Of a stretch of DNA of 43,218 bases, positions 16,474 to 16,994 are shown one piece after another (position 1 is the first letter of the stretch; each line of letters starts with the position of its first letter). The notes under the pieces were generated by a model, which worked only from the letters and a program-made list of their open reading frames with translations, was not told the DNA's origin and did not search any database. Position numbers and translations under genes: made by a program. Source of the stretch: an uncultured Christensenella sp. (GTDB lineage: Bacteria > Bacillota > Clostridia > Christensenellales > UBA1242); contig CASFMG010000049.1 of assembly GCA_949295755.1 (NCBI GenBank), positions 1-43,218 of the forward strand. Reading direction: 5' to 3'.

Positions 16474-16744
16474 AATTTAAAACATAAACTTATGCTTTAA
16501 TAAAATAAATTTTTTACTTTTTAAAATAAAATCAAACTTATATTGAAAATTATCTTAAATTTTTAAACATTTTAATATGAATAGCAATATTTTTTGATTT
16601 TCGCTCCGTTAATTTTCTTTCCACAAAATGTTTTCACAATTTCAATGTTGCCATTTTTGTCTTAAGAAAATGAAGTTATTCATAATTAAAATTTAATATA
16701 TGTTTTATTGTGTTGTAGATTATTTTAAATTTTAATATGAAGAA

Positions 16745-16822
16745 CGAGGCTCACGGGTGTTTGTCCACGCAGGAGTTTGCCTTCGCAAATGACTGTGTGG
16801 CAAAGACACGTAGTAAACGAAG
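16745..16822 (+). ncRNA. GC-rich hairpin core, copy 2 of the family (strand tentative)
   Basis: CGAGGCTC, ACG.../...CGT base helix, CCACGCAG (16765-16772) / CTGTGTGG (16793-16800) with one G.U, GAG/TGA internal loop, apical TTTGC-CTTC-GCAAA, then AGTAAAC. Confidence 0.5.
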
Positions 16823-16891
16823 TTATTCATAATTAAAATTTAATAAATATTTGATTGTGTTGTGTATTATTTTAAATTTTAACATGAAGAA

Positions 16892-16968
16892 CGAGGCTCA
16901 CGGGTGTTTGTTCACGCAGGAGTGTGCTTGGCACATGACTGTGTGGCAAAGACACGTAGTAAACGAAG
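16892..16968 (+). ncRNA. GC-rich hairpin core, copy 3 of the family (strand tentative)
   Basis: Same architecture as 16745-16822. The apical stem is changed to TGTGC-TTG-GCACA (a compensatory pair), and a C>T change creates a second G.U on the + strand. Confidence 0.5.
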
Positions 16969-16994
16969 TTATTCATAATTAAAATTTAAAATAA

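What the first reader, a model, noticed from the sequence alone, without database searches (positions are those of the whole stretch)
16560..16990. Tandem GC-rich hairpin elements with compensatory mutations wedged inside the str operon (rpsG-fusA spacer)
The rpsG stop (16995) and the fusA start (16420) are about 570 nt apart. By established knowledge these genes are normally nearly contiguous.

Repeat structure:
- The spacer holds three head-to-tail units, with ATGA register marks at 16577, 16737 and 16884.
- Units 2 and 3 contain a core of about 78 nt (16745-16822 and 16892-16968) that is far more GC-rich than its surroundings.
- Unit 1 keeps the AT-rich arms (TTTTAATATGAA ... GAAGTTATTCATAATTAAAATTTAA, themselves an imperfect inverted repeat) but has an unrelated AT-rich interior.

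Fold of the core, a long irregular hairpin:
- GAGGCTC, then base helix ACG.../...CGT.
- CCACGCAG/CTGTGTGG.
- A symmetric GAG/TGA internal loop, which could form tandem G.A/A.G plus a G.U pair.
- An apical 5-bp stem, then AGTAAAC.

Evidence for selection on structure:
- Between units 2 and 3 the apical stem changes from TTTGC-CTTC-GCAAA to TGTGC-TTG-GCACA. The T>G change is matched by A>C, so this is a compensatory pair.
- The C>T change at the first pair of the second helix keeps pairing only as a G.U on the + strand.
- The existing G16769.T16796 wobble likewise exists only on the + strand.
- This points to a transcript antisense to the operon, or to a DNA-level or mobile hairpin element.

I do not recognise this motif as any Rfam family from memory.
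Basis: partly seen in the sequence, partly recalled or inferred. Interest (0 to 1): 0.75.

Follow-up and report, generated by a model that had tools for sequence, protein, structure and literature searches.

The report
Terminator-hugging hairpin repeat family in Clostridia
The two GC-rich hairpins between rpsG and fusA are real copies of an apparently undescribed family of hairpin repeats that sit just after stop codons in AT-rich gut Clostridia, keeping one strand's fold through many compensatory mutations; whether they act as DNA or RNA is unresolved.

Summary
rpsG and fusA are 574 nt apart. The spacer carries two 91-97% identical units plus a decayed one, and a third diverged copy lies at 12186-12291.

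These are not a local oddity. A pattern scan and a covariance model found about 165 copies in about 100 loci from about 30 Clostridia or Christensenella-like gut MAGs, often more than 10 loci per genome. None were found in viral contigs, plasmids, phages or Rfam 15.

The architecture is P1, then a GAGGCUC / AG(U)AAAC(R)AA internal loop, then a 16-bp P2, then a tandem G.A/A.G plus G.U motif, then P3.
- P2 and P3 are 94% paired, and 18 of 25 pairs show double changes.
- Two fixed wobbles and the G.A pairs make the fold strand-specific. The motif strand is the more stable one in 126 of 130 copies.
- Copies abut the stop codon of a gene on the opposite strand.
- In co-directional gene pairs they are antisense 37 times and sense 6 times.
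- They form arrays, decay and turn over.

One subfamily, which includes the window's third copy, is flanked by a duplication of the whole target terminator hairpin, so it is mobile.

Against a close relative the rpsG-proximal copy is 95% identical, while the flanking spacer is about 57% identical.

Best reading: a new REP/MITE-like foldback repeat that targets terminators and is recognised as a folded single strand. Its partner protein is unknown, and RNA versus ssDNA is unresolved.

The parts
16730..16836 (+). Element copy 'unit 2': P1 5' arm 16730-16745, GAGGCTC 16746-16752, P2 5' arm 16753-16769, CAG|GAG 16770-16775, P3 plus loop 16776-16789, TGA|CTG 16790-16795, P2 3' arm 16796-16811, AGTAAAC 16812-16818, then GAAG and the P1 3' arm
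   Evidence: Covariance-model hit of 86.9 bits, E 6e-22. RNA fold -34.4 kcal/mol, z -4.15. Pattern matches.
16877..16982 (+). Element copy 'unit 3', the rpsG-proximal one. Core 16893-16964. Its P1 3' arm ends about 10 nt from the rpsG stop codon at 16995-16997.
   Evidence: Covariance-model hit of 79.5 bits. It is 95% identical to the orthologous copy in L127, against about 57% for the flanking spacer.
16570..16700 (+). Unit 1: a decayed copy that keeps the P1 arms (TTTTAATATGAA ... GAAGTTATTCATAATTAAAA) and a J3' remnant. Its core is replaced by remains of an inserted sequence.
   Evidence: Alignment of the three units. The interior is homologous to the insert that disrupts the distal unit in L127. 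It does not fold better than shuffled sequence (z -0.45).
16665..16989 (+). Tandem duplication (period 146-147 nt) that produced units 2 and 3.
   Evidence: the repeat finder families D1 and D4 at 91% and 97% identity. L127 has only one intact unit at this site.
12157..12328 (+). Third copy, of the 'class A' subfamily: about 170 nt with 16-nt terminal inverted repeats (CAGACTGCCGAAAAAC ... GTTTTTCGACAGCCTG). Core hairpin at 12186-12291.
   Evidence: Covariance-model hit of 81.3 bits. The larger fold of 12135-12350 is -62.2 kcal/mol, z -4.9. Nearly identical copies occur in many MAGs.
12138..12156 (.). Left copy of the duplicated target terminator hairpin (AAACACTATTTAAGTGTTT), preceded by an A-run.
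   Evidence: Direct repeat with 12329-12345. The same arrangement has 15-26-nt duplications in other loci, for example L005 with 26 of 26 and L060 with 18 of 18.
12329..12345 (.). Right copy of the duplicated terminator hairpin (ACACTTTTAAGTGTTTT), followed by a T-run. It abuts the ppa stop codon at 12345-12347.

Best explanation
**What it is.** The hairpins are members of an uncatalogued family of 105-170-nt foldback repeats, specific to a clade of AT-rich gut Clostridia (Christensenella-like MAGs).

**Shape of one copy.** Each copy is one long hairpin built from these parts, outside to inside:
- P1, variable in sequence and 14-26 bp long, with AT-rich ends.
- A conserved asymmetric internal loop, 5' GAGGCUC opposite 3' AG(U)AAAC(R)AA.
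- P2, variable in sequence but fixed at 16 bp, with U.G at pair 7 and G.U at pair 16.
- A conserved CAG|GAG|U opposite A|UGA|CUG motif, which gives tandem G.A/A.G plus G.U.
- P3 and a small, free loop.

**Shown here.**
- The fold of one strand is maintained by compensatory change.
- Copies sit in the gap between a stop codon and the intrinsic terminator of housekeeping genes. The folding strand is almost always antisense to that gene.
- Copies duplicate in tandem, recombine, get interrupted and decay.
- One subfamily inserts exactly at the foot of a terminator hairpin and usually duplicates the whole hairpin.
- At the rpsG site the element is as conserved as coding DNA.

**Inferred.**
- The elements are non-autonomous mobile DNA of the REP/MITE-like kind.
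- Their single-strand fold, with two fixed non-Watson-Crick motifs set 16+3 bp apart, is the handle read by a trans-acting protein that has not been found.
- Once in place, a copy extends the gene's 3' UTR or terminator hairpin and can stop transcription coming from the other side.
- The pair in the str operon arose by a 147-nt tandem duplication of the rpsG-proximal copy.
For: **Family and structure.**
- The covariance model found 140 + 25 hits in those loci and 3 in the window.
- P2 plus P3 are 93.7% paired, and 18 of 25 pairs show changes on both sides. Slid controls pair 34-39% of cells. 0 of 500 shuffles reach the observed values.
- RNAalifold independently predicts the same 22 pairs, 15 of them with compensatory changes.
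- P2 arms are 15-17 nt long in all 97 regex hits.

**Strand specificity.**
- Fixed wobbles: U.G in 44 of 64 and G.U in 55 of 64, with G.U in 64 of 64 at the GA motif.
- In the variable P2 and P3 pairs, by my tally's per-pair counts, G.U outnumbers A.C 24 to 11 and purine-purine mismatches outnumber pyrimidine-pyrimidine ones 58 to 29.
- The motif strand is more stable in 126 of 130 copies, -42.7 against -31.5 kcal/mol on average.

**Position.**
- The gene on the element's 3' side is on the opposite strand in 82% of cases by the classes (61 of 74 copies flanked by ORFs on both sides; 82 of 97).
- In co-directional gene pairs, 37 copies are antisense and 6 are sense.
- The core's 3' end lies 12-30 nt from the convergent stop codon in 46 of 82 cases.
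- Neighbouring genes are housekeeping, for example S7, EF-G, L1, L19, RRF, DnaK, LysRS, DnaN and SSB.

**Mobility and turnover.**
- Class A copies are flanked by direct repeats of the entire terminator hairpin, 13-26 nt long.
- Window 33858-33886 is an intact terminator at the site where L082 carries the element, inserted between the stem and the T-run.
- fusA-tuf is empty in the window and filled in relatives.
- Different variants occupy the same site in L034 and L101, although the flanks are 93-98% identical.
- Arrays with truncated or interrupted units are common.

**Constraint at the rpsG site.**
- All 8 genomes checked (the window and 7 relatives) carry copies abutting the rpsG stop, all antisense.
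- Against L127, unit 3 is 95% identical. Spacers are 55-58% and the rpsG coding sequence is 91%.
Against: - No transposase, RAYT, integrase or reverse transcriptase was found in the window. None recurs next to copies.
- The duplication is not a fixed-length target-site duplication, and it is absent in L082.
- Copies of the simple class, including the two in the finding, show no duplication that I could define.
- Conservation as strong as in coding sequence, and retention at the same site in 8 genomes, fit a host function at least as well as a selfish element.
- The folding strand is the template strand of the neighbouring gene. By gene orientation and GC skew it is probably the leading-strand template. 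That is the strand least often single-stranded, which is awkward for an ssDNA mechanism.
- Nothing here tells ssDNA from RNA.
Confidence: 0.5

Rival explanations
1. A family of structured RNAs made from the motif strand. These would be small antisense RNAs, or terminator-embedded RNP scaffolds, whose two conserved internal loops bind a protein. They could, for example, stop and mark transcription that runs antisense into highly expressed genes. The DNA-level mobility would then be secondary.
For: - Tandem G.A plus G.U motifs and fixed wobbles are typical of RNA-protein recognition sites.
- Four or more consecutive Ts (a T-run) follow the element in 80 of 95 copies.
- The motif strand folds at -42.7 kcal/mol on average.
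- The element evolves as slowly as coding DNA at the rpsG site.
- It is retained at the same site in 8 genomes.
Against: - There is no conserved promoter at any fixed distance upstream; information content is near zero beyond -33.
- In class A the motif strand lies downstream of a terminator hairpin.
- Many copies are truncated, interrupted or swapped between close relatives.
- No expression data are available.
Confidence: 0.25
2. A folded-ssDNA recombination or processing site, like an integron attC or a REP, used by a chromosomal recombinase or HUH enzyme. On this view the hairpins are sites that get copied and shuffled, not transposons with ends of their own.
For: - As with attC, only short boxes are conserved while the stems covary, and the fold is strand-specific.
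- The element abuts the stop codon of the upstream gene with the folding strand antisense to it.
- Variants are exchanged at a fixed site.
Against: - The attC R boxes (RYYYAAC / GTTRRRY) and the REP 5' GTAG/GTGG tag are absent from the consensus.
- Neighbours are core genes, not cassettes.
- No integrase or RAYT was found nearby.
Confidence: 0.12
3. A cis-acting element of the str mRNA itself, on the - strand. It would be an intercistronic hairpin that sets rpsG/fusA stoichiometry by attenuation or 3'-end protection, as E. coli REPs do in operons.
For: - The - strand is certainly transcribed as part of the operon or 3' UTR.
- The reverse complement still folds, at -31.5 kcal/mol on average.
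- An A-run upstream of the element gives a U-run after the hairpin in the sense RNA in 75 of 95 copies.
Against: - On the sense RNA the conserved wobbles become A.C mismatches and the G.A pairs become C.U.
- The sense strand is the less stable one in 126 of 130 copies.
- The same element sits behind dozens of unrelated genes.
Confidence: 0.08
4. A member of an already described RNA family or mobile element, or a chance palindrome.
For: None was found. The catalogue of human-microbiome RNA candidates in PMC8040213 could be searched only in part.
Against: - Rfam 15 gave nothing.
- Plasmid and phage BLAST gave nothing.
- Viral contigs held only chance matches.
- Literature searches gave nothing specific.
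- Chance is excluded by the shuffles.
Confidence: 0.05

Closest known systems
REP / BIME / REPIN elements with their RAYT (TnpA_REP) transposases
   Same: - High-copy extragenic imperfect palindromes at gene 3' ends and inside operons.
- Stems that covary.
- A fold on one strand that is recognised as single-stranded DNA.
- They can act as terminators or mRNA stabilisers.
- Clustering into arrays.
   Different: - REPs are 20-40 nt and carry a 5' GTAG/GTGG tag 0-2 nt from the stem (PMC6006769).
- Here the unit is 105-170 nt with three helices, two conserved internal loops and no such tag.
- No RAYT gene was seen.
- Orientation is fixed relative to the neighbouring gene.
Bacterial MITE-like repeats (Correia/NEMIS, ERIC, RUP, BOX, bcr1)
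   Same: - Size of 100-170 nt.
- Terminal inverted repeats that make the whole unit a hairpin.
- Many copies, non-coding and intergenic.
- Effects on termination and mRNA processing are known for some (reviews PMC10969869, PMC3184786, PMC2229807; listed, cited from my own knowledge).
   Different: - MITE copies resemble each other in sequence and give a short duplication of fixed length.
- Here the stems have diverged almost completely while pairing and loop sequences are kept.
- The duplication is the whole target hairpin, 13-26 nt.
- No parent IS is known.
Integron attC sites
   Same: - An imperfect palindrome of 55-140 nt with only short conserved boxes.
- Covarying stems.
- Strand choice set by unpaired features.
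- A position right after the stop codon of the upstream ORF, with the recombining strand antisense to it (from my knowledge of the integron literature).
   Different: - There are no R''/R' boxes, no cassette ORFs and no intI nearby.
- Units occur in ORF-less tandem arrays.
Class C group II introns (target preference only)
   Same: They insert immediately after intrinsic-terminator stem-loops, as class A does between the stem and the T-run (from my knowledge; compare).
   Different: - There are no intron domains; Rfam group II models do not hit.
- The element is 170 nt and not more than 600 nt.
- There is a hairpin duplication.
Kink-turn / box C/D-type G.A motif
   Same: The stack A-U, U.G, G.A, A.G matches the non-canonical stem of a box C/D k-turn. 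This is my reading of the sequence together with established k-turn rules.
   Different: The 3-nt bulge that defines a k-turn is absent; the G.A pairs continue directly into the CAG/CUG helix.

Membership tests
Any Rfam 15 family | Covariance-model score at or above the family's gathering threshold | tested here: not met
   There were 0 hits at gathering thresholds over the whole window. At E<=10 over 12000-17100 there were only weak chance hits; just one (PreQ1, 19 bits against a gathering score of 39, 12242-12286) overlaps a copy.
REP / BIME | GTAG or GTGG tetranucleotide 0-2 nt 5' of the hairpin | tested here: not met
   The family consensus next to the stems is C|GAGGCUC|G and C|AG(U)AAAC. 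The definition comes from PMC6006769.
REP / BIME | Short hairpin: a 7-20-bp stem with a 2-5-nt loop, optionally one bulge | tested here: not met
   The element has three helices, about 35-45 bp in all, with a 7x10 and a 3x3 internal loop.
REP / BIME | A single-copy RAYT gene flanked by the repeats | tested here: inconclusive
   No such ORF lies between or next to copies in about 0.85 Mb of fetched loci. Whole genomes could not be scanned.
MITE | Terminal inverted repeats | tested here: met
   P1 arms are present in all copies. Class A has 16-nt terminal inverted repeats, CAGACTGCCGAAAAAC / GTTTTTCGACAGTCTG.
MITE | Target-site duplication of fixed, short length | tested here: not met
   The duplication equals the target hairpin at 13-26 nt, or is absent. 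None could be defined for simple-class copies.
MITE | A parent insertion sequence with the same ends | tested here: inconclusive
   No transposase was found next to any copy. There are no plasmid or phage matches. ISfinder was not available.
Integron attC | R'' RYYYAAC and R' GTTRRRY boxes at the ends of the palindrome | tested here: not met
   The conserved boxes are GAGGCTC and AG(T)AAAC; the reverse complement GTTTACT does not fit GTTRRRY.
Kink-turn | A 3-nt bulge followed by tandem sheared G.A/A.G pairs | tested here: not met
   The tandem G.A/A.G is present, but the internal loop is symmetric, GAG/UGA, with no bulge in any of 64 sequences.
Intrinsic (Rho-independent) terminator | A stable hairpin followed directly by a U-run | tested here: met
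   For the family, a T-run (four or more Ts) follows the element in 80 of 95 copies and an A-run (four or more As) precedes it in 75 of 95. This is weak for window units 2 and 3, whose P1 is followed by TTTAAAATAA.
IS200/IS605-type ssDNA elements | Subterminal hairpins at both ends, insertion 3' of a fixed tetra- or pentanucleotide without duplication, active strand on the lagging-strand template | tested here: not met
   There is a single central hairpin, a hairpin duplication is present, and the folding strand is antisense to the mostly co-oriented genes. The replication direction itself was not resolved (GC3 skew 51:52).

The most novel reading that the evidence does not exclude
The family may define a new mechanism class, in one of two forms:
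- (a) A structure-reading mobile element whose unknown enzyme cuts at both feet of an extruded terminator hairpin, so that the whole hairpin is duplicated. This would formally resemble the repeat duplication seen in CRISPR spacer integration. The enzyme would recognise the element through a folded single strand carrying G.A and G.U signatures.
- (b) A new class of antisense 'terminator-guard' RNA-protein scaffold placed behind the stop codons of highly expressed genes.
Probability: 0.3. Interest if true: 0.8.

Novelty: new variant of a known kind. Interest (0 to 1): 0.6.

Why it matters
- It adds a large, well-defined structured repeat family to a poorly studied and uncultured but common group of gut Clostridia.
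- It supplies a ready covariance model, with 34 base pairs and heavy covariation.
- It explains why core operons in these genomes have inflated, assembly-breaking spacers.
- Three features point to a specific protein partner and an insertion chemistry that existing REP, MITE and attC models do not cover. These are the precise stop-codon-proximal antisense placement, the fixed 16-bp spacing between two non-Watson-Crick motifs, and the duplication of whole terminator hairpins.
- If the elements modulate termination or block convergent transcription behind ribosomal and glycolytic genes, they are part of gene-expression architecture in this clade.

Tried and rejected
- **Known RNA families.** Rfam at gathering and at E<=10 gave nothing relevant, and no tRNA or tmRNA was found.
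- **Small ORF.** The conserved AGGAG, 13 nt, then ATG looks like a start site, but the frame runs into variable P2 sequence. It stops after 3 codons in common variants such as ATGACTGTCTAG. Rejected.
- **Kink-turn, loop E and UAA/GAN readings of the loops.** No bulge is present, and the U of AGUAAAC is missing in about half of the copies. Rejected or unsupported.
- **Own promoter.** No positional signal lies upstream of -33. The consensus scan finds nothing convincing in the spacer.
- **Phage or plasmid origin.** The 11 viral pattern matches have no model hit. BLAST against plasmids and phages is empty.
- **Associated protein.** Clustering of 736 flanking ORFs gives only housekeeping clusters. 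ORFs lying between pairs of copies are FtsJ-like, iPGM or unknown.
- **Replication bias versus transcription bias.** Overall skew follows gene orientation and the GC3 skew is flat, so this is inconclusive.
- **Exact-protein look-up of S7.** It returned only a 1.9-kb contig that ends at the spacer.
- **Weak model hit at 23448-23506.** It lies inside a helicase ORF and is chance.
- **PMC8040213 supplements.** There was no match in the first 200 of 408 files.
- **Automated empty-site search by flank BLAST.** It was mostly noise from the repeats themselves. Only the window/L082 and L034/L101 pairs were usable.
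Full report
**1. Observation**

The window is an AT-rich bacterial segment of about 28% GC. The str operon lies on the - strand: rpsL 17519-17893, rpsG 16995-17468, fusA 14348-16420 and tuf 13032-14282. The rpsG-fusA spacer is 574 nt.

The spacer holds a tandem repeat with a period of 146-147 nt and 91-97% identity. Two GC-rich cores start at 16746 and 16893. A second match to either half of the core is expected 0.00 times by chance.

As RNA the + strand folds into one long irregular hairpin, at -34.4 and -33.3 kcal/mol (z about -4.2). 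The - strand folds less well, at -25.0 and -20.1.

- a T>G/A>C double change in the apical stem;
- a C>T change that leaves a G.U pair;
- a changed loop.

A third, diverged copy lies at 12186-12291 (+), between ppa and a DNA-alkylation-repair gene. No Rfam 15 family matches any copy.

**2. It is a large family**

I scanned one genome per species with the pattern GAGGCTC-N12-24-CAGGAGT-N8-18-ATGACTG. Thirteen of these are coding-region chance matches in unrelated phyla. That is about what I estimate for a 21-base pattern in 596 Gb, which is my own inference.

The rest come from about 30 MAGs labelled uncultured Clostridia, Christensenella sp., Ca. Stercoripulliclostridium and the like, mostly from gut samples.

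A covariance model built from 64 diverse copies (A2, R1) gave these results:
- exactly three copies in the window, at 80-87 bits, with nothing else above 15 bits;
- 140 + 25 copies in the fetched genome loci;
- single MAGs contributing 11-12 loci, and this is a lower bound;
- no model hit in any of the 11 viral pattern matches;
- no BLAST match in plasmids or phages.

The pattern fixes 21 bases by construction. Even so, the roughly 45 copies found only by the model show the same conservation in those columns.

**3. Anatomy and covariation**

The consensus, 5' to 3', runs as follows:
- P1 5' arm, ending in C;
- GAGGCUC;
- P2 5' arm of 15-17 nt, 16 nt in 73 of 97 copies;
- CAG, GAG, U;
- P3 of 5-6 bp with a loop of 4-6 nt;
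- A, UGA, CUG;
- P2 3' arm;
- AG(U)AAAC(A/G)AA;
- G, then the P1 3' arm.

Pair counts on the MAFFT alignment:
- P2 plus P3 are 93.7% paired.
- 18 of 25 pairs have changes on both sides.
- Sliding the partners by 1-3 columns drops pairing over the whole structure (87.1% as drawn) to 34-39%.
- 0 of 500 shuffles reach the observed pairing or covariation score.

RNAalifold predicts the same 22 pairs on its own, 15 of them with compensatory changes.

Three non-Watson-Crick features are fixed:
- U.G at P2 pair 7, in 44 of 64 sequences; the others are U-A or C-G.
- G.U at the last P2 pair, in 55 of 64.
- The G.A, A.G, G.U stack, in 64 of 64.

Several lines point to the motif strand as the one under selection:
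- At variable P2 and P3 positions, by my tally's per-pair counts, G.U outnumbers A.C 24 to 11.
- By the same tally, purine-purine mismatches outnumber pyrimidine-pyrimidine ones 58 to 29.
- The motif strand folds better in 126 of 130 copies. The means are -42.7 against -31.5 kcal/mol with RNA parameters and -21.4 against -16.6 with DNA parameters.

The selected structure is therefore that of the strand carrying GAGGCTC. None of these measures can tell RNA from single-stranded DNA.

**4. Genomic context**

- The gene on the element's 3' side is on the opposite strand in 82% of cases by the classes (61 of 74 copies flanked by ORFs on both sides; 82 of 97).
- In co-directional gene pairs the element is antisense 37 times and sense 6 times. 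Only 7 copies lie between divergent genes.
- In 46 of 82 cases the 3' end of the core lies 12-30 nt from the stop codon of the convergent gene. P1 therefore ends at the stop codon. The remaining cases are mostly second or third units of arrays.
- The abutting genes are ordinary housekeeping genes: S7, EF-G, L1, L19, RRF, DnaK, LysRS, YchF, DnaN, SSB, SufB/D and RNase H.
- Upstream of P1 there is no positional promoter signal.
- An A-run precedes the element in 75 of 95 copies and a T-run follows it in 80 of 95. These runs largely pair with each other as the outer part of P1.
- No transposase, integrase or reverse transcriptase is encoded in the window. None recurs beside copies.

**5. Evidence for mobility and turnover**

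The window's third copy belongs to a subfamily I call class A. It is about 170 nt long and has 16-nt terminal inverted repeats. It is nearly identical at many sites, both within MAGs and between them.

Class A copies are flanked by a direct duplication of an entire intrinsic-terminator hairpin:
- 26 of 26 nt in L005;
- 18 of 18 in L060;
- 24 of 26 in L007 and L103;
- 23 of 24 in L085;
- 17 of 19 in L109;
- 15 of 16 in L098;
- 11 of 13 by the script's ungapped match in the window, where the two hairpin copies span 12138-12156 and 12329-12345.

The upstream copy is preceded by the A-run and the downstream copy is followed by the T-run. The target was therefore a bidirectional terminator just behind a stop codon, here that of ppa.

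Further signs of gain, loss and exchange:
- The window has an intact terminator at 33858-33886 at a site whose flanks match L082 at 83-85%. L082 carries a class A element exactly between the stem and the T-run, in this case without a duplication.
- The fusA-tuf spacer is 65 nt to the called tuf ORF in the window (about 113 nt if tuf starts at MAKE, near 14234). It is about 350-700 nt and packed with 1-4 elements in relatives.
- L034 and L101 have flanks that are 93-98% identical. They carry different element variants against the same stop codon, and one variant is truncated at its apical loop.
- Arrays of 2-4 divergent units, collapsed units and units interrupted in P2 or P3 are common.

**6. 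The rpsG-fusA site**

The spacer is 357-1042 nt in the seven genomes where it is complete: the window and six relatives, S7 76-92% identical. An eighth, L020, is cut off by the end of its contig. All eight hold 1-3 intact copies, all antisense, with the last one abutting the rpsG stop. They also hold decayed copies.

Copies of the same P1 type (window, L020, L028) differ in P2 by compensated changes. For example, GGCAAG.../...CTTGAC becomes GATTAG.../...CTAATC.

The one metagenome hit, L127, is a close relative. It has one intact unit next to rpsG, plus a distal unit whose 3' half is replaced by about 140 nt. That insert is homologous to the interior of the window's unit 1. This has two consequences:
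- Unit 1 is a decayed, disrupted copy.
- The window gained an extra intact unit by a 147-nt tandem duplication.

Identity between the window and L127:

| Segment | Identity |
|---|---|
| rpsG-proximal element | 95% |
| rpsG coding sequence | 91% |
| Spacer segments | 55-58% |
| Unit 1 | 44% |

The intact element is therefore under constraint, or is being homogenised, while its surroundings drift.

The five differences between unit 3 and L127 are:
- one in the loop;
- one in the R position of the 3' junction;
- three in stems, namely C-G/U.G, G-C/G.A and C-G/C.A. The last of these is the intermediate of a T-A to C-G exchange that can be seen between unit 2 and L127.

**7. Interpretation**

*Shown:*
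- This is a strand-specific hairpin family that is maintained by compensatory change.
- It sits at stop-codon-proximal terminator positions.
- It has a fixed orientation.
- It is dynamic, and at least one subfamily is mobile.
- It is locally constrained.

*Inferred:*
- A trans-acting protein reads the fold.
- The two conserved non-Watson-Crick motifs, held 16+3 bp apart, suggest a ruler-like recognition.
- The hairpin-length duplication suggests staggered cuts at the two feet of an extruded terminator hairpin.

I commit to a REP/MITE-like, non-autonomous, terminator-targeting foldback element as the best single description (0.5). Its likely side effects are on termination and on 3' UTR structure.

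The main rival is that the motif strand is expressed as a structured antisense or terminator RNA with a protein partner (0.25). The high local conservation favours that rival. The lack of a promoter signal and the frequent decay count against it.

An attC- or REP-like recombination-site reading (0.12) and a sense-mRNA cis element (0.08) remain possible.

One awkward fact applies to any ssDNA model. The folding strand is the template strand of the neighbouring gene, and probably the leading-strand template. The motif strand is C-rich in 91 of 104 cases, but this is confounded with gene orientation, and the GC3 skew is uninformative. Survivorship of the orientation that folds least often is one way out, as has been proposed for chromosomal integrons. 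That is only an idea.

**8. Comparison with known systems and novelty**

- The family fails the defining features of REP: no GTAG/GTGG tag, and it is not a short hairpin (for the definition).
- It fails those of classical MITEs: no fixed short duplication and no parent IS.
- It fails those of attC: no R boxes.
- It fails those of k-turns: no bulge.
- It matches no Rfam family.
- It behaves like REP/BIME and MITE repeats in copy number, location and hairpin nature.
- It behaves like class C group II introns in its choice of target.
- Literature searches found no description of it. A large catalogue of human-microbiome RNA candidates could be checked only in part.

I rate it a new variant of a known kind, namely bacterial interspersed hairpin repeats. 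There is a fair chance that the mechanism behind it is new.

**Caveats**
- Loci are at most 8 kb.
- ORFs were called with a simple script.
- MAG taxonomy labels are taken as deposited.
- No expression data exist here.

Noticed in passing
window 42966-43064 and 43120-43218 (+); promoter-like site 42911-42939: Two 100% identical tandem copies, 154 nt apart, with the second cut by the window end. The sequence starts like a tRNA (acceptor, D arm and anticodon stem: GGAATGTAGCTCAGCCGGTTAGAGCACCACC). It then carries a GC-rich stretch of about 50 nt and no recognisable T arm. It lies just downstream of a perfect TTGACA-17-TATAAT.
   Followed up: partly
window 1-43218: Not a single Rfam family reaches its gathering score in 43 kb, and no tRNA is called, even though the window contains the str operon and other translation genes. 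No ribosomal-protein leaders are detected.
   Followed up: no
window 33858-33886: An intact bidirectional terminator (AAAAAAAGTTTCTTAAAGAAACTTTTTTTT) behind the stop of the hydrolase gene 33887-34777. It is the empty counterpart of a site that carries a class A element in L082, inserted between the stem and the T-run.
   Followed up: yes
window 14283-14347; L072:3800-4190, L064:2995-3420, L102:340-1085, L021:6405-6853: The fusA-tuf spacer is short and element-free in the window. In relatives it is about 350-700 nt and filled with 1-4 antisense elements abutting the fusA stop. The 416-aa tuf ORF probably starts 16 codons later, at MAKE near 14234, judging from where relatives begin to align.
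   Followed up: partly
class A copies, e.g. L005, L022, L060, L066, L085, L086, L109, L076 (apical loop of P3): Copies whose P2 arms are identical differ in the apical loop. At least 8 loop variants of 4-6 nt occur (TTAC, TTCC, ATGC, ATGT, ATGCAC, ATGCGA, ATACTC, ATACGC). The hairpin tip is a mutational hot spot. Insertions and truncations in other copies also map to P3 (L075, L034).
   Followed up: partly
L127:2300-2440; window 16589-16671; L039:6700-6860; L056 and L011 flanks: A second repeated sequence, ...TTTCGCTCCGTTTYTCCTCTCCCCAMAAAGT...TTTTGGGGTCCCCAT..., is itself a hairpin. It recurs inserted into, or fused to, the main element. It accounts for the 'unrelated interior' of unit 1.
   Followed up: partly
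e.g. L043:1530-1600, L063, L011, L036: A sub-variant replaces CAGGAGU/AUGACUG with CACGAG(U/C)/(A/G)CGACUG. The G-C pair next to the G.A stack becomes C.C, and the G.U becomes G-C. This occurs in 11 of 140 copies.
   Followed up: no
window 16450-16477: A hairpin AAAACGGCATTATCCGTTTT followed by a T-run lies 30 nt from the fusA start codon. It is terminator-like on the + strand, and it is also a hairpin plus UUUUAC on the operon strand. It is partly conserved in L127.
   Followed up: no
window 21982-25731 (-): A 1249-aa protein with DUF4011, SF1 helicase (AAA_11/AAA_12) and a C-terminal MTES_1575 restriction-endonuclease-like domain. Nearby are a YpsA/SLOG protein and an HTH regulator (25814-26838). 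This is a possible defence or repair island.
   Followed up: no
L009 (Spirochaetales MAG), L004, L099, L016: Model-supported copies occur in a few MAGs labelled outside the main clade: Spirochaetales, Thermoanaerobacterales and Lachnospiraceae. I did not examine whether this reflects mis-binning, mislabelling or real spread.
   Followed up: no
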